NCBI GenBank assembly: GCA_964016885.1
Contig: OZ024743.1
Location: 171,492,001-171,556,000, forward strand
Length of the DNA: 64,000 bases
Direction of reading: 5' to 3'
From: Eledone cirrhosa
Lineage: Eukaryota
Shown here: positions 1 to 55,324 of the stretch, one piece after another
How the letters are laid out: each line of letters starts with the position of its first letter
Numbering within the stretch: the first letter of the stretch is position 1
Notes under the pieces: generated by a model
Seen by the model: the letters and a program-made list of their open reading frames with translations, nothing else
What the model was told of the DNA's origin: nothing
Databases searched by the model: none
Translations under genes and position numbers: made by a program

Positions 1-1420
1 GTAATTGTAGGAATCGGGTTGATTGCCCCCTATCCGGAAAATGCCTCTCTAGTAACATTGTCTACAAATGTAAGGTTGTCACACCCACGTCCCGTAGGGC
101 CTACATAGGGTTAACCGCCAATAGATTCAAGCAGCGTCTTTACATGCATACCCATTCTTTTCGTTACCCTCTAAGAAGGAATATGACGTCACTTTCAGAT
201 TATATCTGGAGTCTAAAAGGCAACCACACCCAATATAGGTTACACTGGGAGATCCTAGTTAGGGCCAGATCGTATAACGGAAATAAAAGACCATGTGACC
301 TCTGCGCTGCTGAGGCCCTGGAAATACTCTACGCCACAGACCACATCTTAAACAAAAAATCTGAGGCAATTTTGGCTTGTAAACATAAATTGCACAAAAC
401 TTTCCTGTATTACAGCCCCACATTATACACTAACGGATAGTACGATCTATACGAGGATATTTTACGTCTTGATGTGGTAGCTAAGTATATGTTATATTTA
501 TACCATTACTTATTTGCATAGGTAAGTATATATTACCTGTATGTTTTGTGAAGGTACGTATACTTTCTCACACGTATATCTGATTGTATATGTTATGGCG
601 TATATTTTATATATTCTGGTACATATGCTTTTGGTTATGTGTATACGTGAGTTTTGCGTCTGTGTGAGTATGCGGGTTCGTACGTATGTAGGGTCTGTGT
701 ATATGTGTACTTCATATTTTGGTTGACGTACGTCTCCGGACATTTGTGTATTTACATGTAGGTATGTGTGTGCGCTTGTTACATACGTATTTATTTATTT
801 ATATACGTTTATTTAATTATTTGTATACAGGCACACACACACACATATTTATATGTGCGTGTATTTGTATACCTATGTATGCTTGTGTATGTACTTATAA
901 GGATGCATGTATGTATTTATTTTATTTCAATTACCTCTGTATTTTATTTACTTTATTCTTAACTGTGAAGCCGAGAATCATTCGGTTTCCTAGTTAGAAT
1001 TTTAGTCTACGACTTCAGTTATACCATTTTCGTGGTTTTGTCTTTGCGTGCAATTGTTCTCCACGATCCACATATGACGTATTATCTTCGTTTTTTTTCG
1101 TTCATTGCCAGAGAACGTCTCTATGAATAACCTAAGAGAATATTAGTCTACGACTTCTTTTATACCATAAACGTGGTTTTGTCTTTGCGTGTAATTGTTT
1201 TTCACCGCTCCAAATAATGACGTATTATATTCGTTTTTTCCCCTTCTTTGCCAGGGAACGTTTCCACGAACCAAAGTATCGTCTTCCTGTCTTCCTCCGG
1301 TTGCAACGTTTTTTGAAATATTCACTTCTACGTTCACAGATTGACTTTGTTAGTTTCAGAAGATCCCGTTAAGGGTGAAAGCAGCGATTCTTTGCTTAAA
1401 CTTTAATCTGTCATTTTAAT
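1..1420 (+). mobile_element. PLE family A: 3' end (GIY-YIG tail) plus pseudo-LTR
   Basis: CNCRNRVDCPLSGKCL..IVYKC..AYIGLTANRFKQR followed by ORF 144-440; the 3' region matches 42720-44380 and 52405-54050 and ends in a hammerhead motif and (AT)n. Confidence 0.9.
1352..1402 (+). ncRNA. Type I hammerhead ribozyme motif, U4A core
   Basis: AGTTT-CAGAAGA-TCCC gttaa GGGT-GAAA-GCA gcgattctt TGC-TT-AAACT; predicted CUU cleavage triplet. Confidence 0.7.
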
Positions 1421-5831: not shown

Positions 5832-5894
<63 letters not shown>

Positions 5895-5895
<1 letters not shown>

Positions 5896-6103
5896 CGTTG
5901 CATTACCATCTTTGTTTGTTTACTGTCTCGCTCGTTCCCCCTATTTACGTGTCCCCATGACTTTCTTTAGCCGTTGCTCGCACCAACCAGAGGCATATGG
6001 CCTTTAAAGCGATGAAATACCAATGAAGGCTGGAAGATCACTGATGAAGGACTAATTTTATTCATATGTAACCCATTTGCAAACACGCAGCACGCCATTT
6101 TTT

Positions 6104-6110
<7 letters not shown>
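5895..6110. repeat. Unclassified ~200 bp interspersed repeat with a conserved structured core (copies at 39681-39860 and partially at 35296-35400)
   Basis: Shared cgttgcat..acca..tgtttgtt leader and GCTCGCAC..GG.AT.T.G.CTTTAA.GC...GAAATACCAA core; bounded by (AT)n. Confidence 0.7.
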
Positions 6111-6139
<29 letters not shown>

Positions 6140-18549: not shown

Positions 18550-19086
18550 TAGAATTGAAGCTCTGAAATAGCAATATATATATGGATGTATATATAATGT
18601 ATTTTGCAATACACTTTATGCTTAATTAAAAGCATTTTGAAGACCGTAAGCTATTGTTTTTTAGAGTAGTGACAAATTCACTTACTTTGATCTCAGCAAA
18701 CAGGGGAGATAAGCCGACAAGGCCTTGTTTCGCTTTTGTTGAAGCTTATCAAGGCTAACTACTCCCACCTGTCTACCGAGATCACTGATGTTATATTCTT
18801 ATAGAATTCTAGTAAATAATCAGGAGCTGATTATGCAGAGCGGTTGTTGGTCAGGCAGAAATTAAAAATTAGAATTGGAGCTCTGAAATAGCAATATATA
18901 TATGGATGTATATATAATGTTGATAAGCTTCAACAAAAGCGAAACAAGGCCTTGTCGGCTTATCTCCCCTGTTTGCTGAGATCAAAGTAAGTGAATTTGT
19001 CACTACTCTAAAAAACAATAGCTTACGGTCTTCAAAATGCTTTTAATTAAGCATAAAGTGTATTGCAAAATACATTATATATACAT

Positions 19087-26613: not shown

Positions 26614-26647
<34 letters not shown>

Positions 26648-26988
26648 TTAATATAGATGAGATTCTACAGGGCTAGAACTGTTTCATTCATTAGAAATCA
26701 TCTGGGTATCAAAAAATAAATATGGTATTTATAGGTCTCTACAAGTGGTAGGAGAGGGTGGGGAGTGGGATGGGTGCAGGTCATTGGTTGATAGAAAAGG
26801 GAATTCATTAAAAGCTAATTCTACAAAGCTATAGTTTATTTTTATTTTTATTTATATTTATTTATGTTTTTAGAGTAACAAAGGCAGACAGAATTCTATA
26901 AACAGGTTCCGGATGGCATACCATTCCTTGTCAATGAGTTTCTCTTAAGCTAACAGATGTCTATAAAATCAGTGGGGGGTCAGTCGTG

Positions 26989-26989
<1 letters not shown>

Positions 26990-27046
<57 letters not shown>

Positions 27047-27070
27047 GTATGTAGGTATGTATGTGTGTGC

Positions 27071-27114
<44 letters not shown>

Positions 27115-27134
27115 GTATATGATTGTGTGGGCAG

Positions 27135-27202
<68 letters not shown>

Positions 27203-27281
27203 ATTTGTATGTATATATGTATATGTGTGTATGTGTGTGTGTGTATATGTATGTATATGTATGTGTGTATTTATATATATA

Positions 27282-27326
<45 letters not shown>

Positions 27327-27327
27327 A

Positions 27328-27384
<57 letters not shown>

Positions 27385-27722
27385 ATGTGTGTATATATGT
27401 GTGTATATATATGTGTATATGTATGTGTCTGTGTATGTGTATGTGTGTATGTATGTATATATGTGTGTATATGTGTGTGTATGTGTGTATATATATATAT
27501 ATATGTGTGTATGTGTATGTATGTATATATATATATATATATATGTATGTATATATATATATATATGTATATATATATGTGTGTATATGTATATATATAT
27601 ATATGTATATGTATATGTATGTGTATATATGTATATATATGTGCGTGAGAGAGAGAGTGTGTATATATATTTTGTGTGTGGGTGTGTGTATGTGTGTATG
27701 CGCGTGTGTGTATATATATATA

Positions 27723-27777
<55 letters not shown>

Positions 27778-27881
27778 GTGTGTGTATATATGCGTTATAT
27801 GTCTGTATATATATGTGTATATTTATGTATAGGTCTGTGTATGTATGTGTATGTCTATATATGTATGGATATATATATGTG

Positions 27882-27979
<98 letters not shown>

Positions 27980-28158
27980 AATATATATGTGTGTATATGT
28001 GTGTGTGTATAGATATTTATACATATGTATACTCGTGTTTGTATGTATGCGTGTGAGTGTATTTATTTGTGTATATATGTGTGTGTGTGTGTATGTATGT
28101 GTATGTGTGTGTGTGTATCTGTTTGTATATATATATATATATATATGTGTGTGCGTGT

Positions 28159-28212
<54 letters not shown>

Positions 28213-28245
28213 ACACGCACACATATATATATATATATATATATA
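26990..28245. repeat. Compound (AT)n/(GT)n microsatellite, ~1.25 kb
   Basis: Almost pure alternating purine-pyrimidine sequence; source of many spurious ORFs. Confidence 0.97.
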
Positions 28246-28689
28246 GGGAGCTCTCAAGACTCAATAGCCATCCAAAATCACCGGGAGAGATGACCCCTTA
28301 GCCTTTGTCAAGGCAGAATTCTAGGAGAAGGAAAACTCTGATATAACACCTGCAACCCTGATGGTATCCAATGATGTTGACTTGTTCTTCTTTTTGGTAA
28401 ATATCATCTTGGTTAAGAGAGTGGGACTGGCTTTGTGCAGTGCCTTTGCTCACTATAAAAGCTTCACAGCACAGGCATTGCTTTATATCTGGAGATCTCT
28501 CTGCACTTGTCATCCCATGGTACCATGGGCCCTGCACTATGTGTCAATAATGGTCACAAGTGTAGTCTTTGTACCAGAGTTTTCAAGTCGCTGGCTGGTC
28601 TAAAAAGTCACATTCGTTCAGCGCATCGGTAGGGGTTCTCCTACATGGATATAAAGTAGTGGCCGTACTCGAAAACGAGTTGGCAGCCA

Positions 28690-28727
<38 letters not shown>

Positions 28728-29387
28728 GTATTATATATGTATGTATGTATGTGTGTATGTATGTGTGTGTACATGAATATATATTTATATATATTTATAT
28801 ATTTTTATATATGTGTGTGTGTTTTTATGTGTGTATATGTGTTTGTGTGTGTGTTTATGGTTGCGCGTAAGTGTGTGAGTGAGTATGTGTTTTTTTGTTT
28901 TTTTGTTTTTTTGTTTTTTTGTGAATGTGTCTGTTGATTTTTGGCATATAGTTGATTAGTTTAAGAGAAGTTCGAAGATAATAGTAAGATATGCACTCAG
29001 TTTTTTTAATCTGTCTGCAGAATTCTCTAGACCTTTGTCACTTGGTAGAACCTTAATGACTTTAGCTTTTAAAGAATCTCCCTTTTCTTTAATTCTATCG
29101 ACCACGACTGACCCCCCACTGATTTTATAGACATCTGTTACCTTAAGAGAAACTTATTGACAAGGAATGGTATGCCATCCGGAACCTGTTTATAGAATTC
29201 TGTCTGCCTTTGTTACTCTAAAAACATAAATAAATATAAATAAAAATAAAAATAAACTATAGCTTTGTAGAATTAGCTTTTAATGAATTCCCTTTTCTAT
29301 CAACCAATGACCTGCACCCATCCCACTCCCCACCCTCTCCTACCACTTGTAGAGACCTATAAATACCATATTTATTTTTTGATACCC

Positions 29388-29438
29388 AGATTCCTGATGA
29401 TTTCTAATGAATGAAACAGTTCTAGTCCTGTAGAATCT
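29388..29438 (+). ncRNA. Type I hammerhead, canonical core
   Basis: AGATTC-CTGATGA-tTTC taat GAAt-GAAA-CAG ttctagtc CTG-TA-GAATCT; GUA site, predicted cut after 29432. Confidence 0.88.
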
Positions 29439-29520
29439 CATCTATATTAAAACTGCTATACTCTGCTATGTATTGAGTACCTTACTTACTGTGGTTGCCT
29501 CCGATTCAACCCGGAATAAC

Positions 29521-30439: not shown

Positions 30440-31100
30440 AAAGAAAGAAGAAATATTAGATATAAATAAATACCCATTTTTTCTTCAAATTCCCCACTGT
30501 ACAGTTTCGTGGCTACTATGCAAAAATCCTATATCATAGAGATGTAAAATTTTTGTGAGGTATGCCGACTTTTCAAGGGAACACCTCATGGAAAATTTTC
30601 AGAACAAGTCTGCATCGCACGAAAGAATCTCTTAAAGGCGGAGGGAGACCCTATCACGTGATACAGTGTTCAAGAAATGGGGCTAAATCCCTTGTAGCAA
30701 TGAAAAATATCACAGAAGGCGGAGGGGATATTAATATGATGCAGAGGCTAAAGAAGGGGGGTGGGGTAAGGAAGACTAGAAGTGTATATAGTACTAGCCT
30801 TCTGTGATATTTTTCATTGCTACAAGGAATTTAGCCCCATTTATTGACCACTATATCACGTGGTAGGGTCTCCCTCCGCCTTTTCGAGATTCTTTCGCGC
30901 GATGGAGATTCTTTCGCGCGATCCAGACCTGTTCTGAAATTTTTCCATGAGGTGTTTCCTTGAAAAGTCGGGATACCTCACAAAAATGTTACATCTCTAT
31001 GATATAGGATTTTTGCATAGTAGCCACGAAACTGTACAGTGGGGAATTTGAAGAAAAAATGGGTATTTATTTGTGTCTAATATTTCTTCTTTCTTTATAA
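30440..31100. repeat. Long inverted repeat (about 30440-30720 / 30798-31100)
   Basis: Arms ~280-300 bp, spacer ~75 bp; each arm has a hammerhead motif. Confidence 0.9.
30490..30581 (-). ncRNA. Type I hammerhead motif, U3-A8 core, extended stem II, G17 (mirror 30955-31046, +)
   Basis: TTCCC-TTGAAAA-GTcGGC..CAAAAATTTTA/TAGGATTTTTG..GCCAC-GAAA-CTGTACAG-TG-GGGAA. Confidence 0.72.
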
Positions 31101-31293
31101 TATATTACATAGCTCTGATATAGAGTCAATTTAATTATTCCGATTATCATGTCTCTGATAGTCACCGAGGAACACTGTGTAATGTCCACAGCACACAATC
31201 TCACATACTTGTGAAAAATGTATGTGTATATATGCATGTATATGTATGTATACACATATATCTGTGTACCTCTCATTATTGTATATATATATA

Positions 31294-35280: not shown

Positions 35281-35390
35281 TATATATATATATAAATGAA
35301 ATACCAATGATGGTTGGAAAATCACTGACGAAGGACTATTTTTATCATATGTAACCCATGTGCAATCACGCAGTATTCTTCTTTCTTCTC

Positions 35391-35444
<54 letters not shown>

Positions 35445-39094: not shown

Positions 39095-39989
39095 CTGAAG
39101 ATGAAAGACAAAGCAATAGAGAATGTAGCAGACAGGGAAAACAAGATAGGAAGTGAGTTAGGAAATAGATAAAATGAATTAAATTGGGTTTGGAAATGGA
39201 AGGAAAGATATGATTATAGGAAACATGAAGGTGGAATGAAGAAGACTGCTTTAATACATGATAAATATTACAAGCTATCTACACTTCTCCCTTGTGACGT
39301 AAATGGTTTAAAGAGATAAATACACTATAGCGGTTATACACCACGTTGGGTGTATAAATTTGGGTGTAATAATTATGTAAATATACGTTTGGTCACACAC
39401 ACACACACACATACACACACACACACATATATATATATATACCACCATGTGTTTGTTTCCTTCCCTCTGATTTCACTCTCGGCTGGCCCCTTCCTCCCAC
39501 TTTCACTCGCTCCCTCTCTGCTTCTCCTCCCCCCTATCACTTCCTCCCGTCTGACCTGCTTGAATTTCTTTCCTCTCTCAATCTTCTCGCGACTCGGACG
39601 TGTCTATTTCTCCTCGTCAATTTGATTTGTCGGGCTTAAGCCCACAGGATTCATTGACTTGTTTCTATTTTCCTCTCTTTACGTTGCATACCACCATGTG
39701 TTTGTTTCCTTCCCTCTGTTTTCCCACTGTCCCGATAACTTAATTGAGTTATCGCTCGCACTGACTTTAGGTATCTAGTCTTTAATGCAGCGAAATACCA
39801 ACGATAATCAGCAGACTACTAAAGTGGACATTTTACCCCTTGTCTATTTTTATTCATATATATATGTATAAAAGGATATAAATAATTTTCTATATGGATA
39901 GTAAACACAACCACAAGGATATGGTCCGAACGTGGAAGATCCGAACTCCCACTGTCATCGCCTCCATCTCTCTGTATGGTGAGCAAATG

Positions 39990-41726: not shown

Positions 41727-42719
41727 CTCATATACACTCAAACAAATACGCGCCTATTAGCTACATGCCCACTTACATCTACAAAGATACATACATACAT
41801 ATGTATATCTGTCCGTACTCAAATATGATATACTAACAGAGTCATATAAATCTACACAACGGGTCATACAGGGTCATCCATGAAAGGATGCATGTTGCTA
41901 TACACATGCACAAATATAAACAATGTAACTAAATACATATATCCATGCACATACATGCATTATAAATACACACATATAAAAAAAATAAATAAGTAAATAA
42001 AAAATAAATAAATGTATATATATACACATATATACACATATATACACACACATGTACACATATATACACGTACATACACACACATACATACACATCTGTA
42101 AAAAAACTTACAATATACTAAAATATCCATATAACGTCATACATTAAAAGATGTATCTTGTACTAAACATGTGCAAATATAAACGGTATAATCATATACA
42201 TACATCCATACACATTCACATAACATGTACATATATATATCTCTACATACACACGCATACATATATACACACACATACGCATACACATATACACACATAT
42301 AAAAACATAAAATAAATATACAATATATTAAAATATACATATAACGTCACATAGAGATATATAAAAAAAAAGAGGAGAAAGAAGAAGGGACGTGTATGCG
42401 TATGATATAGTACATATGGGGAGTATGAGATGCACAACTGGGCCTGTATACGGAACAAATAATGTGTTCCAAAATGGAACACGTGGAGAGTATGGATTCT
42501 CGATTGAAAGGTACACATGCATGGGGGTGCGTAGCCCGGCCATATTGGAGTATGTCACTGTGTTTGAGGTATGTTGTCCTATATGTGTAAGGTATTTGAC
42601 TGAAAGACCGTGGAACCCGGGTCAACCTGTCCCGGCTCAGGCGATGTTCTTGCCTAGGGTGACGTGCAGAGTCGGGGATGCATCTTGGGTTATTTTGGTT
42701 TACCCCAAGGGGCATATCC

Positions 42720-43512
42720 GGGAAATGCCTCTCTAGTAACCTTGTCTACAAATGTAAGGTTGAAACACCCACGTCCCGTAGGGCCTATATAGGGTTAACC
42801 GTCAATAGATTCTAGCAGCGTCTTTACATGCATACCCAATTCTTTTCTTAACCCTTTAAGAAGGAATATGATGTCACTTTCAGCTTATATCTGGAGTCTA
42901 AAAGACAACCACACCCAATATAAGTTACACTGGGAGATCCTAGCTTGGGTTAGATCGTATAACGTAAATAAAAGACCATGTGACCTTTGCGCCGTTGAAG
43001 CCCTGGAAATATTCTACGCCAAAGACCACATATTAAACAAAAAATCTGAGGCAATTTCGGCTTGTAAACATAAATTGCACAAAACTTTCCTGTATTACAG
43101 CCCCACTTTATACCCTAACGGATAGTACGAACTATACACGGATATTTTACGTCTTGATGTGGTGGCTAAGTATATGTTATATTTATACCATTACTTATTT
43201 GTATAGGTAAGTATATATTACATGTATGTTTTGTGAAAGTACGTATATTTGCTTGTATATGTTATTGGCTTATATTTATATTATATATACTGGTACATGT
43301 GCATATGGTTATCTGTATACGTGAGCTTTGCTTCTGTGTGAGTATGCAGGTTCGTATGTATGTAGGGTGTGTGTATATGTGTACTTTGTGTTTTGGTTGA
43401 CGTTTAGTGAACATATGTGTATTTACATGTAGGTATGTGTGTGTGGGCGTTATACACGTATTTATGTGTGTATATTTATATACATTTATATAATTATTTG
43501 TATACACGCACC

Positions 43513-43545
<33 letters not shown>

Positions 43546-44380
43546 TTTTTATATATATTTTTTATGTGTATTTGGTGTATACGTTCGTATGTGTGCGGGT
43601 ACAGGCGTTGCGTTAGTTCTGTATGTGCGTGCGTGGTTTTTTGTGTACGTGCTTGTATTTGCATACCCATGGCTGGTGTTTTCGCGTATGCATGTGTATG
43701 TACGTATACTGATGCGTGCATGTGTATATTAAATTTTTGTTGATTTCAATTACCTCTGTAATTTATTTACATTATTCTTAACTCTGAAGCCGTGTATCAT
43801 TCGGTTTCCTAAATAGAATTTTAGTATACGACTTCAGTTATATGATAAACGTGGTTTTGTCTTTGGGTGTAATTGTTCTCACCGTGGCACATAATGACGT
43901 ATTATCTTCATTTTTTCCGTTCATTGCCAGAGAACGTCTCCACGAATCCCCTAATAGAATATTAGTCTACGACTTCATTTATACCATAAACGTGGTTTTG
44001 TCTTTGGGTGTAATTGTTCTCACCTGTCCACATATTGACATATTATCTTCGTTTTTTTCCGTTCATTGCCAGAGAACGTCTCCACGAACCACATAATAGA
44101 ATATTAGTCTACGACTTCATTTTTACCATAAATGTGATTTTGTCTTTGCGTGTAATTATTTTCACCGCTCCTAATTATAACGTATTATCTTTATTTTTTT
44201 CCGTTTTTTTGCCAGAGAACGTTTCCACGAAACCAAAGTATCGTCTTCTTGTCTTCCTTCGCTTGCAACGTTTTTCGAAATATTTACTTCTGCGTTCACA
44301 GATTGATATTTTTAGTTTCAGAAGATCCCGTTAAGGGTGAAAGCAGCGATTCTTTGCTTAAACTTTAACCTGTTATTTAA
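42720..44380 (+). mobile_element. PLE family A 3' end plus pseudo-LTR (hammerhead at 44314-44364)
   Basis: GIY-YIG tail ORF 42868-43125; three ~141 bp subrepeats; near-identical to 52405-54050. Confidence 0.9.
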
Positions 44381-46275: not shown

Positions 46276-46809
46276 ATATTGTTATACTTTGGGAGGGTCA
46301 TGTTGCCAATAAGAAACACACGCACCAGTTGCTTTCACTTCAATTTATTATAATAAATTTATAAATTTAGGAATTTATAAATTTCTGGTTGGTTGGTTGG
46401 TTGGTTCCACAACCAGATAGTTGTTTATATATTGTCAAAGTTCTTTCGTCACACATTCTGTGACCTCTTCAGTGACTGGCGATTCTTTTCTTTGTTTTTG
46501 TGCCTCTCCTTTGTTCTGTCCTACGCCATTTTGTTTCTGTCACGTATCTGAGAAACAAAATAGCGCAGGACAGAACAAAGGAGAGGCACAAAAACAAAGA
46601 AAAGAATCCCCAGTCACTGAAGAGGTCACAGAATGTTTGACGAAAGAACTTTGACAATATATAAACAACTATCTGGTTGTGGAACCAACCAACCAACCAG
46701 AAATTTATAAATTCCTAAATTTATAAATTTATTATAATAAATTGAAGTGAAAGCAACTGGTGCGTGTGTTTCTTATTGGCAACATGACCCTCCCAAAGTA
46801 TAACAATAT
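46276..46809. repeat. Near-perfect 534-bp palindrome of a PLE pseudo-LTR
   Basis: ~260 bp arms, ~12 nt spacer at 46539-46550; ends resemble 3520-3552 (atgaccctccc.aagtataacaat). Confidence 0.93.
46613..46655 (+). ncRNA. Minimal type I hammerhead, canonical core (mirror 46434-46476, -)
   Basis: GTCA-CTGAAGA-g-GTCA cagaatgtt TGAC-GAAA-GaaC-TT-TGAC. Confidence 0.82.
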
Positions 46810-48544: not shown

Positions 48545-49370
48545 GATATATACATATATGAGTTCAAATCGCAAGGACCAGATTCGCTAAGGTGAAAAGA
48601 ATAGATAACAGGGTTTGCATGCCTCAATTTAAGAATAAATCAAGAAAATAAATACAAACCGGAATTGTGATAATTACCAATCACCCAGACAGCTCTTGGT
48701 GCTGTTTCGCAATATTAATTGTGAATAGGGTGATTGGTAGTTACCACAATTCCGGTTTGTATTTATTTTCTTGATTTATTCTTAAATTGAGACAGGCAAA
48801 CCATATTGTCTATAGTTAGTATTCTTTTCACCTTAGCGAATCTGGCCCCTTGCGATTTGAACACATATATGTATATATCTGTGTTCGTTTTTCTTTTATA
48901 TTCAATTATAGTATACGGCTCGGAAAAATCTCTTTCTTAGAGCTATTTTATTGTAAGAGACTATTTTGGGTTTCTAACTCAATATATACATTTGATATAT
49001 TAGGCTCCGTTTATTGGTTGAGCTAATTCAAATGTCGAATAAACCTGGCTGCTATTTTTAGTGGTGTAAGTTTGTGAGACACGCTAAGATACCATTTGCA
49101 TTATTATATATAGCACACTATTCAGTTTCTTAATATACTTAGTAGTGTCTAGGATACTAATTCTTCACCCACTGATGAGCAAGAATTGGCATTTCTATTC
49201 GCAATTAATATTGCGAAACAGCACCAAGAGCTGTCTGGGTGATTCATAGTTACCACAATTCCCGTTTGCATTTATTTTTTTGATTTATTCTTAAATTGAG
49301 ACAGGCAAACCCTATTGTTTATAGTTAGTATTCTTTACACCTTAGCGAATCTGGTCCCTTGCGATTTGAA

Positions 49371-49981: not shown

Positions 49982-49994
49982 ATATATATTTATT

Positions 49995-52900
49995 AAAATA
50001 ACATTAAAGTTTAAGCAAAGTATCGCTGCTTTCACCCTTAACGGGATCTTCTGAAACTAAAAATATCAATCTGTGAACGCAGAAGTAAATATTTCGAAAA
50101 AGGTTGCAACCGGAGGAAGACAGGAAGACGATACTTTGATTCGTGTAAACGTTCCCTGGCAAAGAAAGGAAAAAATGAAGATAATTCGTCATAATTAGGA
50201 GCGGTGAAAACAATTACACGCAAAGACAAAACTACGTTTATGGTATAAATGAAGTCGTAGACTAATATTCTATTTAGGAAACCGAATGATACACGGCTTC
50301 AGAGTTAAGAATAATGTAAATAAAATACAGAGGTAATTGAAACTAAATATATACATACACGCATCCATATACGTACATACACATGCATACGCGAAAACAC
50401 CCGCCATGGGTATGCAAATACAAGCACGTACACAAAAACCACGCACGCACATACAGAACTCACGCAACGCCTGTACCCGCACACATACGAACGTATACAC
50501 CAAATACACATTAAAAAATATATAAAAAGAAAAAAAATATATATATATATATGTGTGTGTGTGCGTGTATACAAATAATTATATAAGCGTATATAAATAT
50601 ACACACATAAATTCGTATATAACGCCCGCACACACATACCTACATGTAAATACACATGTGTTCGCTAAACGTCAACCAAAACACAAAGTACACATATACA
50701 CACACCCTACATACATACGAACCTGCATACTCACACGGAAGCAAAACTCACGTATACACATAACCATATGCACATGTACCAGTATATATAATATAATATA
50801 TACGCCAATAATATATACCAGGAAAACATACCTAAAACTGATACAGAAAACAGACGCGTTCATTAAAAGGTTGCGTTGGCACGCCTTTTACTTCGATAAT
50901 CAGGGAAAAGCGGATAACAAACAGGATAAATTTGGGTTTAAAACCTATAATAACCCTCTGAGTAACCAAGCCTTGCTACCCATCGAAATGATGTCTTGGA
51001 ACTTATACGGAGTATCAAATTTCAGAATAGGAGCAATTCCTTCCAGCAGGATCTGAAGAATAGAATTCGTTCTATTAAGGATTCTAATGCCATGCACGTC
51101 CACTCCGACAAAACAGGCAATCTATATCAAGTGGAGCGCAGTACTTACCATCAACTGCTACATAATGCTGTAACTAAGGATTACCGTAAAACTAATCTGA
51201 GCATCATTAATGACATCAACGATGCTGGGTTTAAAATCACCTCTGATCTCAACATCCTGGACCGGACTGAACGTCTGGACCCTATTTCTCCCCACATTAC
51301 CCCGAAGGATCACTAATCCAATTTCCCGAACAACACCTCTATTCAGCTTATTAACCCTACGAAGTCCGATTTAGGTAGACTTAGTAAAATGATTTTAGAT
51401 AGAATTATACCTGAAATTTGAAGTTTGGCCCCAATTGCACCGTGGAACAATTCTTTCGCGGTGATTGATTGGTTCAACGGCATATGCAACAAAGAACATT
51501 GCTGTTTTATCCAATTCAACATCAATAATTACTACTCCTCCATCCCTTTACCACTTCTTCTGAGAGCTATCAATTTCGCTAAAACACTCACAGTGGTTAA
51601 GGATTTCGAAGTTGATGTCATCCTCAATGCCCGTAAGTCGGTAATTAATTTCGACGACTCTATTTGGATAAAAAAATCTAATAGTACCCCATTCGACGTG
51701 AGTATGGGCGCCAGCGATTCTGCGGAGGTTACTGAACTTATCGGCCTTTTCCTTCTTTTCTCTATCAAGGAAGAATTCCCCTACGTGGGTGGTGGTTTGT
51801 ACCGTGATGACGGTCTTTTGACCATGACAAGGTGCGGCCCACGCGCTTGCGACAGGTCAGAAAAGAACTCACAGCCTTCTTTTAAGGCTTCGACCTCTCC
51901 ATACAGGTTGAAGCCAATCTCTCGGTAGTTAATTACTTCGACGTTACCCTCAATTTGTCGAATGGCTTGCACTACCCGTATAGAAAGCTGAATGATACGC
52001 TTACCCATCCTGCCAGTATAACCAAGAAACAAACAAGCATATTTTCACCGACCATTCCACATATTACAATGAAGCTCTTACTCGGAGTGGATTTGTCGAT
52101 AAGGTAGCATATACAGAGTATGAGAATAGACCTAGGAAAAATAGATCCCGACGCATTATATGGTATAACCCACCATATAATATGGAGGTGGCCACACCAT
52201 TAGCTAAGATCTTTCTCTCCCCTATTATGACCCCCCCCCAACACATAAATATAGTAAAATGTTTATAGAAATACTATTATAATTTCTTACTGTTCGACTC
52301 CTAACCTTGCCTCAAATTTAGCTAAATTACCTAGCCGTAGAAACACGTGCAACCCTGTAGCTAGTACTAACTGTAATTGTAGGAATCAGGTTGACTGCCT
52401 CATATCCGGGAAATGCCTCTCTAGTAACATTGTCTACAAATGTAAGGTTGAAACACCCACGTCACGTAGGGCCTACATAGGGCCTACATAGGGTTAACCG
52501 CCAATAGATTCTAGCAGCGTCTTTACATGCATACCCATTCTTTTCTTAACCCTTTAAGAAGGAATATGACGTCACTTTCAGCTTATATCTGGAGTCTAAA
52601 AGACAACCACACCCAATACAAGTTACACTGGGAGATCCTAGCTTGGGTTAGATCGTATAACGTAAATAAAATACCATGTGACCTTTGCGCCGTTGAAGCC
52701 CTGGAAATATTCTACGCCAAATTCCACACATTAAACAAAAAATCTGAGGCAATTTCGGCTTGTAAACATAAATTGCACAAAACTTTCCTGTATTACAGCT
52801 CCACTTTATACCCTAACGGATAGTACGAACTATACACGGATATTTTACGTCTTGATGTGGTGGCTAAATATATGTTATGTTTATACCATTACTTATTTGT

Positions 52901-54050
52901 ATAGGTAAGTATATATTACCTGTATGTTTTGTGAAAGTACGTATATTTGCTTGTATATGTTACTGGCGTATATATTATATTATATATACTGGCACATGTG
53001 CATATGGTTATCTGTATACGTGAGTTTTGCTTCTGTGTGAGTATGCAGGTTCGTATGTATGGGTACTTTGTGTTTTGGTTGACTTTAGCGAACATATGTG
53101 TATTTACATGTAGGTATGTGTGTGCGGACGTTATACATGTATTTATGTGTGTATATTTATATACGTTTATATAATTATTTGTATACACGCACCCACACAC
53201 ACATATATATGTATTTTTTTTATATATATTTTTTATGTGTATTTGGTGTATACGTTCGTATGTGTGCGGGTACAGGCGTTGCGTGAGTTCTGTATGTGCG
53301 TGCGTGGTTTTTTTGTGTACGTGCTTGTATTTGCATACCCATGGCTGGTGTTTTCGCGTATGCATGTGTATGTACGTATACTGATGCGTGCATGTATATA
53401 TTTAATTTTTGTTGATTTCAATTACCTCTGTAATTTATTTACATTATTCTTAACTCTGAAGCCGTGTATCATTCGGTTTCCTAAATAGAATTTTAGTATA
53501 CGACTTCAGTTATATGATAAACGTGGTTTTGTCTTTGGGTGTAATTGTTCTCACCGCCCCACAAATGAGGTATTATCTTCGTTTTTCCGTTCATTGCCAG
53601 GGAACGTCTCCACGAATCCCCTAATAGAATATTAGTCTACGTCTTCATTTATACCATATTCGTGGTTTTGTCTTTGGGTGTAATTGTTCTCAGCGCTCCA
53701 CATATTGACGTATTATCTTCGTTTTTTCCCGTTCATTGCCAGAGAACGTCTCCACGAACCACATAATAGAATATTAGTCTACGACTTCATTTATACCATA
53801 AACGTGGTTTTGTCTTTGTGTAATTATTTTCACCGCTCCTAATTATGACGTATTATCTTCATTTTTTCCCGTTTTTTTGCCAGGGAGCGTTTCCACGAAC
53901 CAAAGTATCGTCTTCTTGTCTTGCTTCAGTTGCAACATTTTTCGAAAGATTTACTTCTGCGTTCACAGATTGATATTTTTAGTTTCCGAAGATCCCGTTA
54001 TGGGTGAAAGCAGCGATTCTTTGCTTAAACTTTAATCTGTTATTTTAATA
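49995..54050 (+). mobile_element. PLE family A, near full length, with inverted 5' pseudo-LTR (49995-50818) and 3' pseudo-LTR
   Basis: FIKRLRWHAFYF, DKTGNLY, LINPTKSDLGR, FDVSMGASDSAEV, GLYRDDGL, WYNPPYN, GIY-YIG; multiple stops and frameshifts; hammerheads at 50008-50058 (-) and 53981-54031 (+). Confidence 0.93.
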
Positions 54051-54724: not shown

Positions 54725-55255
54725 ATCCAGTTAGAGGTTGTGAATACTCCGTATTGTGGATAGAATTAGCGTACTGCGTTGTTTGACTCAACAAGAGGTT
54801 TCATTAGGTAGCGAGTTTGCGAGTTCTCGGGAATGCCTATGCAAGTTAATCTTGGAGTAATATTAGTGAAAGAATGAAGAATAGCATGGTTAGCAATACA
54901 AAAAGGGTTTTATTTAAAGTATTAACAATTGTTTCATTGATTAAGTTGTCTAAAAATTGCTAATCACTTGAAGTTGTGTCACTCAATTTTAAATACAATG
55001 TATGCTTAATCAACTCATCGGAAATACCGATTAAAATTATACACGGCGTTTGTAATATACTAGGAAAAAAACGCCGTGTATAATTTTAATTTTAATCAGA
55101 TTTTCCGATGATTTGATTAAGTATACATTGAATTTAAAATTGAGTGACACAACTTCAATGATTAGTAATTTGTAGACAACTTAATCAATGAAACAATTGT
55201 TAATACTGTAAATAAAGACCTTTTTGTACTGTTGACCATGTTATTCTTCACTCTT

Positions 55256-55324
<69 letters not shown>

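What the first reader, a model, noticed from the sequence alone, without database searches (positions are those of the whole stretch)
39749..39825. Unidentified repeated motif with covarying, pseudoknot-like pairings: candidate new structured RNA or ribozyme
Seen: 39749-39825 and 5969-6047 (plus a 3' half at 35296-35335) align colinearly as GCTCGCAC..AC....GG.AT.T.G.CTTTAA.GC...GAAATACCAA......T..G.AGA...CT.A. Variable positions are largely compensatory: CTGA/TCAG versus CCAA/(C,T)TGG; TAGTCT/AGACTA versus TGGCCT/AGATCA; GGTAT/ATACC versus GGCAT/ATACC; outer TTATCG/CGATAA versus AGCC-GTTG/CAAT..GGCT. The helices cross. Like the pseudo-LTR ends, it lies next to (AT)n, but I could not fit it to hammerhead, twister, twister-sister, pistol, hatchet or HDV consensus. 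TCAGCAGACTA and GGTATCTAGTCT loosely resemble group I intron R and S (P7) elements in reversed order, which is speculative. Only 2.5 copies support this.
Basis: partly seen in the sequence, partly recalled or inferred. Interest (0 to 1): 0.72.

Follow-up and report, generated by a model that had tools for sequence, protein, structure and literature searches.

The report
Rewired hammerhead ribozyme in animal retroelements
The motif holds every conserved piece of a hammerhead ribozyme in a knotted, non-standard order, in about 15,000 copies of a small repeat in this animal genome; it is predicted to cut its own RNA, and the same fold ends several Naiad retrotransposons reported to lack a normal hammerhead.

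Summary
It is a hammerhead whose three core strands run cut site, GAAA, CUGANGA: type SGC of Eckert et al. 2023, who found it only in metatranscriptomes. Here a 17-base pattern gives 14,965 hits (control 2), in non-coding tandem units of about 450-750 bp that are 5'-truncated and end in (TA)n. Six helices covary across 20 copies (20 of 32 pairs changed on both sides; 0/500 shuffles). Unlike published SGC forms, stem II is replaced by a junction built with an upstream splint strand, and a kink-turn consensus extends stem III. I read the same architecture at the 3' ends of 8 of 54 published Naiad consensus sequences (targeted look, not systematic). Copy 5' ends are enriched near the predicted cut (p about 0.001), partly confounded by TA microhomology. 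Cleavage and expression are untested, and no intact Naiad was found here. The scan reported this motif before on other pieces of this genome.

The parts
39473..39873 (+). 5'-truncated copy of repeat family A (530-bp unit), ending in (AT)n
   Evidence: 92.5% to the tandem unit of L008; unit length from tandem loci
39728..39831 (+). Type-SGC hammerhead domain, copy with a broken core (likely inactive)
39728..39732 (+). P0 5' strand (splint); pairs with 39826-39830 behind the core
   Evidence: helix 1, 83% paired; family A sits one base out of the common register
39733..39754 (+). Hairpin H1: 7 bp and 8-nt loop
   Evidence: helix 2; MFE fold
39756..39759 (+). P3 5' strand (splint); pairs with 39787-39790, the strand before GAAA, and stands in for stem II
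   Evidence: helix 3, 93.8% paired; 3 of 4 pairs in this copy
39761..39766 (+). P4 5' strand; pairs with 39806-39811
   Evidence: helix 4; 5 of 6 pairs in this copy
39767..39769 (+). Non-bulged strand of the predicted kink-turn; bulged strand at 39800-39805
   Evidence: G.A at 1b.1n in 145 of 156 copies; A.G in 114 and A.U in 39 at 2b.2n
39770..39781 (+). Block S: stem III 5' strand, UC cut site (predicted cut after 39775), stem I 5' strand
39787..39799 (+). Block G: P3 3' strand, GAAA (39792-39795), stem III 3' strand
39813..39830 (+). Block C: stem I 3' strand, core at 39819-39825 (CTAAAGT: G5 and A9 changed), extra base, P0 3' strand
   Evidence: close relatives read CTGAWGA
5893..6125 (+). 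5'-truncated copy of family B (514-518-bp unit) between (AT)n tracts
   Evidence: 95.7% to the unit of L033; array of at least 6 units in L060
5951..6052 (+). Type-SGC hammerhead with intact core (GAAA 6014-6017, CTGATGA 6041-6047; predicted cut after 5997); one mismatch each in stems I, III and P4
35296..35410 (+). 3' half of a family C copy; begins 14 nt downstream of the predicted cut and lacks block S
   Evidence: 95.7% to the unit of L076; full copies

Best explanation
The motif holds all hammerhead core elements in the non-circular order cut site - GAAA - CUGANGA, is predicted to cut its own transcript after the UH triplet, and sits once per unit in non-coding tandem repeats that are likely copied by a Penelope-like reverse transcriptase. 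Shown: the core sequence, six covarying helices, the tandem non-coding units, the 5' truncations and inversions, and the (TA)n ends. Inferred fold: a strand upstream of the cut site acts as a splint. It pairs with the strand behind CUGANGA (P0), forms hairpin H1, pairs with the strand before GAAA (P3) and extends stem III (P4). P0, H1, P3 and at most one or two core-closing pairs would form a junction in place of stem II, and a kink-turn between stem III and P4 would fold that arm back to the far ends of stems I and II. Inferred life cycle, by analogy with non-LTR retrozymes: tandem transcripts are cut into unit-length RNAs, ligated into circles or left as multimers, and reverse-transcribed into (TA)n starting about 60-130 nt behind the cut site. 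Inferred origin: the 3' end of Naiad elements, which carry the same fold.
For: Core conserved in families only 70-76% alike. NUH, GAAA and CUGANGA are intact in 65 of 80 copies found by DNA similarity and not by a core pattern. The U before the cut is kept and H is never G in the tally of 156 copies (UA 92, UC 54, UU 5, other 5). 91.5% of cells paired, 20 of 32 pairs with two-sided change, 0/500 shuffles, slid controls 27-47%. The four best MI-APC pairs are all predicted pairs. The same block order and short stem I-stem II linker are described for type SGC, which cleaves in vitro (PMC10085705); its alignments show the extra base after CUGAUGA. The same helices can be read at the 3' ends of 8 Naiad consensus sequences; the two octopus ones keep the kink-turn and the 8-nt H1 loop and change the middle P3 pair on both sides. 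In a 3'-anchored sample of 84 copies, 5' ends fall at 5.7 per 1000 nt from +20 to -5 of the predicted cut, against 1.5 downstream and 2.1-2.3 upstream (one-sided p 0.0009 for -5..+15).
Against: No cleavage assay exists. A conventional stem II is nearly absent in the commonest families: the base after CUGANGA pairs with the base before GAAA in only 55% of weighted copies, so activity depends on an untested junction. Three of the four P3 pairs show no two-sided change within this genome, and P0 is the weakest helix (83%). I chose the 20 rows of the alignment for diversity and intact pairing, and the structure was derived from these sequences. The 5'-end excess is not sharp: 4 of the 11 ends lie on the TATA that spans the cut site, ends also gather at another TATA near -160, the zone was chosen, and tandem copies are not independent. 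No intact Naiad was found in this genome, only decayed pieces, although the repeats are young (copies 95-97% alike). Several Naiad consensus ends, nematode ones among them, show the ordinary type I order instead.
Confidence: 0.8

Rival explanations
1. Same ribozyme, but it works as a domain-swapped dimer. Blocks S and G of one unit would pair with block C and the splint of a neighbouring unit, so only tandem transcripts would be cut.
For: A rough helix-length estimate (rise, coaxial II/III and kink angle are recalled values) leaves a 24-32 A gap between helix axes for the kink-turn form. The gap is 37-49 A for the coral-type Naiad ends, 47-56 A for the 3-nt-bulge family of this genome at 90-120 degrees, and about 70 A for one Naiad end whose stem III and P4 are almost continuous. 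Linkers of 0-2 nt cannot bridge the larger gaps in a monomer. Units occur in tandem. Dimer cleavage by Penelope-associated hammerheads is in print (title seen in the reference lists; paper not held).
Against: The kink-turn form looks closable as a monomer. Eckert et al. met a similar geometric puzzle, and their SGC RNAs cleaved during transcription. The estimate is not a 3D model.
Confidence: 0.3
2. The splint helices P0 and P3 are an off-state or protein-gated state. They would block stem II until a host protein (15.5K on the kink-turn) or the element's own protein remodels the RNA.
For: P0 and P3 use the two strands that form stem II in published SGC ribozymes. Family A could form a 3-bp conventional stem II instead. 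Box C/D-type kink-turns often need protein to fold (PMC5579392 passage); U.U at 3b.3n occurs in 73 of 156 copies.
Against: Families B, C and D have no usable conventional stem II, so there is no obvious on-state. In published SGC ribozymes the peripheral helix is required for cleavage.
Confidence: 0.15
3. A hammerhead-derived but non-catalytic structure, kept as a binding or priming signal for the reverse transcriptase.
For: It lies at a fixed distance from the 3' end (108 of 249 (AT)n starts at +110 to +119 from the cut). Most copies run through an intact cut site. In a preprint 8 of 9 tested frog retrozymes did not cleave.
Against: The conserved bases are exactly the catalytic ones, while stems vary freely. 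5' ends are enriched near the cut.
Confidence: 0.07
4. A categorically new ribozyme or a group I intron-like core.
For: No Rfam family reaches its gathering score among the listed matches.
Against: Complete hammerhead core in a published permutation; the supposed R/S strands vary between families.
Confidence: 0.02

Closest known systems
Type-SGC hammerhead ribozymes (HRIMA-1 and SGC variants; Eckert et al. 2023, PMC10085705; read: abstract, parts 2-4, discussion part 1, supplement part 1 and alignment passages)
   Same: Block order S-G-C; crossing stems; 5-6 bp stem I; 3-5 nt linker from stem I to the strand before GAAA; an extra base after CUGANGA; full core.
   Different: Those were found only in metatranscriptomes; the paper states none in genomes of known organisms apart from one GCS candidate. 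They have a continuous 4-5 bp stem II and a helix between the two strands flanking block C. Here both of those strands pair with an upstream splint (P0, P4), stem II is a junction with hairpin H1, and stem III is extended through a kink-turn.
Non-LTR retrozymes (Cervera and de la Pena 2020, PMC7229834, passages; Li et al. bioRxiv 10.64898/2026.07.22.740005, parts 1-3 of 5)
   Same: Non-coding tandem units with one hammerhead each, GC 43-45%, monomers to multimers, coexistence with Penelope-like elements.
   Different: Defined there by type I hammerheads and searched with type I (and III) descriptors; units there 150-450 bp against mostly 510-540 and up to 756 bp here. Circular RNA is shown there and untested here.
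Naiad Penelope-like elements (Craig et al. 2021, PMC8557442; passages, supplement table S1 and searched passages of the consensus file)
   Same: (TA)n targets, partial tandems, 5' inversions; the same S-G-C fold with splint at the 3' end of 8 consensus sequences that I read.
   Different: The paper reports no canonical hammerhead (10 'core' and 8 'half core' labels in the supplement). The repeats here encode no protein, and I found no intact Naiad in this genome.
Box C/D-type kink-turn (PMC5579392, passages)
   Same: 3-nt bulge followed by G.A and A.G, C-G before the bulge in 148 of 156 copies, U.U next in 73 of 156.
   Different: Sits inside a ribozyme arm; A.U replaces A.G in 39 of 156; one family has a plain 3-nt bulge. 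I found no natural hammerhead with a kink-turn among the 20 titles and abstract starts listed (of 32 papers).

Membership tests
Hammerhead ribozyme | CUGANGA directly 3' of stem I | tested here: met
   (65 of 80 unselected copies intact at all core positions); broken in the copy at 39819-39825
Hammerhead ribozyme | GAAA directly 5' of stem III, last A paired with the U before the cut | tested here: met
   (U-A in 19 of 20)
Hammerhead ribozyme | NUH cut site between stems III and I | tested here: met
   UA 92, UC 54, UU 5 of 156; no G at H
Hammerhead ribozyme | Stems I and III supported by covariation | tested here: met
Hammerhead ribozyme | Stem II closing the core between CUGANGA and GAAA | tested here: inconclusive
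   0-3 conventional pairs by family; 55% pairing at the first position; helices P0 and P3 take its strands
Hammerhead ribozyme | Site-specific self-cleavage | not testable with these tools
   Only indirect: 5'-end excess near the site
Type-SGC hammerhead (Eckert 2023) | Block order S, G, C with crossing stems | tested here: met
Type-SGC hammerhead (Eckert 2023) | Short linker from stem I 5' strand to the strand before GAAA | tested here: met
   5 nt in 151 and 3 nt in 10 of 163 well-paired copies
HRIMA-1 / SGC-variant motif as aligned in the paper | Continuous stem II and an interaction helix between the strands flanking block C | tested here: not met
   Published rows; here both strands pair with the upstream splint
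Non-LTR retrozyme | Non-coding tandem units, one ribozyme each, low GC | tested here: met
Non-LTR retrozyme | Type I hammerhead | tested here: not met
   Order is S-G-C, not C-G-S
Non-LTR retrozyme | Expression as linear and circular monomer RNA | not testable with these tools
   No RNA holder listed
Naiad-derived non-autonomous element | (TA)n targets, 5' truncation and inversion, tandem units | tested here: met
   Naiad traits
Naiad-derived non-autonomous element | Shared 3' end with an autonomous Naiad of the same genome | tested here: inconclusive
   Same fold in published octopus Naiads; only decayed Naiad pieces and no linked ORF here
Kink-turn | 3-nt bulge, G1b.A1n, A2b.G2n | tested here: met
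   (sequence level); definition
Kink-turn | Kinked fold and L7Ae/15.5K binding | not testable with these tools
   Needs FRET, gel shift or a structure
Group I intron core | Conserved R and S elements forming P7 | tested here: not met
   The stretches vary between families; no Rfam match listed

The most novel reading that the evidence does not exclude
A wide branch of Naiad retrotransposons (cnidarians, arthropods, cephalopods) and their non-coding derivatives use a non-circularly permuted hammerhead of undescribed build: stem II assembled from a separate splint strand as a junction, and a kink-turn arm that a host L7Ae-family protein could fold. In some lineages it can close only as a swapped dimer, which would restrict cutting to tandem transcripts.
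Probability: 0.5. Interest if true: 0.82.

Novelty: new variant of a known kind. Interest (0 to 1): 0.68.

Why it matters
It would be the first non-circularly permuted hammerhead in a cellular genome with comparative support that I could find, and at high copy number. It answers, testably, why many Naiads seemed to lack a ribozyme: standard descriptors look for other strand orders. So hammerheads and retrozymes in animal genomes are probably undercounted. The split stem II and the kink-turn arm make a new scaffold for structure work and a possible natural protein-gated ribozyme.

Tried and rejected
Rfam: no family at gathering score among the matches listed for the window (150 of 176; microsatellite hits to miRNA models). 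Locally only E 1.4-7.9 hits, among them a hairpin-ribozyme hit on the minus strand at 39680-39721 (12.7 bits against a cut-off of 65), which I rejected. Single-sequence folding without pseudoknots is uninformative (z -0.4 to -2.2). RNA evidence: no RNA holder listed; two contig sets of unknown kind (X1, X4) hold the repeat but cannot show ends, strand or level. Parent search: 24 of 160 loci have Penelope-protein hits, without a constant distance or orientation; no shared coding region upstream in the part of the output shown. The abundant young coding family of window 3-437 has no hammerhead by my scan behind its ORF in 30 of 30 loci. Naiad motif searches gave 1 and 6 hits near control level, with decayed pieces and no ribozyme within 7 kb. 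A motif from the octopus Naiad ribozyme found 10 old non-coding copies. Patterns with shorter GAAA-CUGANGA spacing gave 8 hits against 3; longer spacing gave 856 against 2. The ungapped 5'-end test suffered from indels; one search had a wrong offset for one subfamily and was redone; the core count had an offset error and was redone. The paper on dimeric Penelope hammerheads was not held. Supplements of the bioRxiv preprint were not seen and could list further motifs; most of the Naiad consensus file was not read.

Full report
Observation. The three stretches are at the stated places and align without indels across the motif. They are pieces of three related repeats, called A, B and C here: window 39473-39873, 5893-6125 and 35296-35410, each 92-96% like a tandem unit elsewhere in the genome. 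DNA searches gave 1061, 2756 and 90 first-look candidates. Units are 514-532 bp for these families and 445-756 bp over most families, pyrimidine-rich on the plus strand and 43-45% GC. They show no Penelope-like ORF. Copies are 5'-truncated, often carry an inverted 5' part, and end in (AT)n: 249 of 320 copies against 30% background. These are the traits that Craig et al. list for Penelope-like insertions.

What the motif is. With that, all hammerhead core parts appear. First comes stem III 5' strand, UH, stem I 5' strand; then GAAA with the stem III 3' strand; then the stem I 3' strand with CUGANGA. This order cannot be reached by circular permutation of types I-III. It is type SGC of Eckert et al. 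2023, shown to cleave in vitro and found only in metatranscriptomes. A pattern made of GCG, GAAA, CUGANGA and fixed spacing has 14,965 exact matches against 2 for the reversed control. A sub-pattern for a distant family has 691 against 1, and a longer-spacing pattern 856 against 2. One change in the lead copy is at G5, the position mutated in the paper's inactive controls, so that copy is likely dead. The copy at 5951-6052 has an intact core with single mismatches in stems I, III and P4.

Structure. From 192 distinct copies, 169 passed a stem I and III pairing filter and 159 kept the upstream part; they fall into 18-35 clusters by threshold. The four top MI-APC pairs are predicted pairs. On a 20-row alignment that I picked for diversity, six helices give 91.5% paired cells and 20 of 32 pairs with two-sided changes; no shuffle of 500 reaches this, and slid controls give 27-47%. 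The tool warns that related sequences can beat shuffles without structure, but the count of pairs with two-sided changes is its more robust measure. The helices are stems I and III; P4, which extends stem III; hairpin H1; P3, between an upstream strand and the strand before GAAA; and P0, between an upstream strand and the strand behind CUGANGA. A conventional stem II has 3 pairs in family A, 2 in some families and 0-1 in the commonest. So P0, H1 and P3 most likely form a junction in its place (inference). Published SGC rows instead show a continuous stem II and a helix between the strands flanking block C. Between stem III and P4 lies a 3-nt bulge followed by G.A (145 of 156) and A.G or A.U (114 and 39), the kink-turn consensus; one family has a plain 3-nt bulge.

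Link to Naiads. Earlier notes of this scan on other pieces of this genome pointed to Naiad elements; I had reached the SGC and kink-turn readings before that (notes). Craig et al. state that Naiads lack canonical hammerheads, though some hold core halves. In targeted searches of their consensus file I read the S-G-C order with stems I and III and P4 at 8 of 54 Naiad 3' ends (names by file and table order): Octopus bimaculoides, Octopus vulgaris, three Acropora species, Euprymna (P3 degenerate) and two whose names were outside the passages (near parts 12 and 19). The two octopus ends keep the kink-turn and the 8-nt H1 loop, and change the middle P3 pair on both sides. This was read by eye and was not systematic. 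Several other ends, nematode ones among them, show an ordinary type I order with a long stem II. In this genome I found only decayed Naiad pieces, which fits the paper's remark that cephalopod Naiads are remnants; that the animal is a cephalopod is my inference from these pieces. Which enzyme moves the young repeats is open. A young coding Penelope-like family is abundant (63,948 candidates, open frames up to 761 aa), but my scan found no hammerhead behind its ORF.

Is it cut in vivo? No RNA run was listed. As an indirect test I mapped 5' ends of copies anchored 3' of the ribozyme (780 pattern hits, first 100 listed; 84 distinct copies with enough upstream DNA). Ends fall at 5.7 per 1000 nt in the zone +20 to -5 around the predicted cut (11 ends), against 1.5 downstream (6 ends) and 2.3 and 2.1 upstream (8 and 11 ends); one-sided p is 0.0009 for -5..+15. 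The window's third copy also begins at +14. This is what a reverse transcriptase running off a cleaved RNA would leave. But four ends lie on a TATA that spans the site, where microhomology with the target suffices; ends also gather at a TATA near -160; the zone was chosen; and tandem copies are not independent. It is a hint. Most copies run through an intact site, so their templates were ligated circles or uncut multimers (inference; circles are shown for type I retrozymes).

Monomer or dimer. P4 joins the far end of stem III to the far ends of stem I and P3 by 0-2 nt. A rough estimate (recalled helix parameters) makes this closable with a kink-turn. It does not close for the coral-type or near-straight Naiad forms, or for the bulge family at typical bulge angles. 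A swapped dimer of two tandem units would fit any arm length. I give this 0.3.

Verdict. It works like a hammerhead and meets every sequence-level test except a conventional stem II. It belongs to the SGC order but not to the published HRIMA-1 or variant alignments, and it behaves like a non-LTR retrozyme without the type I ribozyme that defines them. I found no report of SGC hammerheads in animal genomes or Naiads in the held library (listings only, apart from the papers named). New variant of a known kind; interest 0.68. The scan has noted it repeatedly in this genome; those notes are not independent evidence.

Noticed in passing
window 29394-29440 (+) and 49172-49245 (+): Two ordinary type I (C-G-S order) hammerhead candidates with paired stems I and III in other repeats.
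   Followed up: no
window 1-774, with copies at 42715-43443 and 52373-53126: 3' end of a young coding Penelope-like family (GIY-YIG-like by recall; no Pfam hit). 63,948 candidates and frames up to 761 aa genome-wide; no hammerhead found behind the ORF in 30 of 30 loci.
   Followed up: partly
window 39439-39474: A 36-bp piece from further downstream in the same unit (39688-39723) sits at the 5' junction of the lead copy, next to (AT)n; looks like a template switch.
   Followed up: no
window 43812-44231 and 53484-53902: 142-bp tandem repeats (3 copies each), related to 995-1418 and 49990-50274, behind copies of the coding family.
   Followed up: no
window 18599-19073, 26645-29453, 30473-31105, 46276-46809, 48562-48915, 54860-55266: Many long inverted repeats, as expected from 5' inversions of Penelope-like insertions.
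   Followed up: no
L219-L228: An older, decayed non-coding family whose stem III, kink-turn and P4 region resembles the octopus Naiad end; cores mostly changed.
   Followed up: partly
L240:2000-2300, L237 (minus strand, about 1050-1300 from its end), L236, L238: Decayed Naiad-like coding fragments with stops and frameshifts.
   Followed up: partly
L223, minus strand, ending about 550 nt before the motif: A 316-aa open frame that looks like a glycosyltransferase (recalled resemblance, not searched), with an old repeat copy behind it.
   Followed up: no
L091/L092, L154/L155, L293, L298: Head-to-head inverted pairs; in L091/L092 and L154/L155 the junction lies within a few bases of the predicted cut site.
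   Followed up: partly
PMC8557442 supplement, nematode Naiad ends: Type I order with a long stem II, so Naiads seem to use at least two hammerhead wirings.
   Followed up: no
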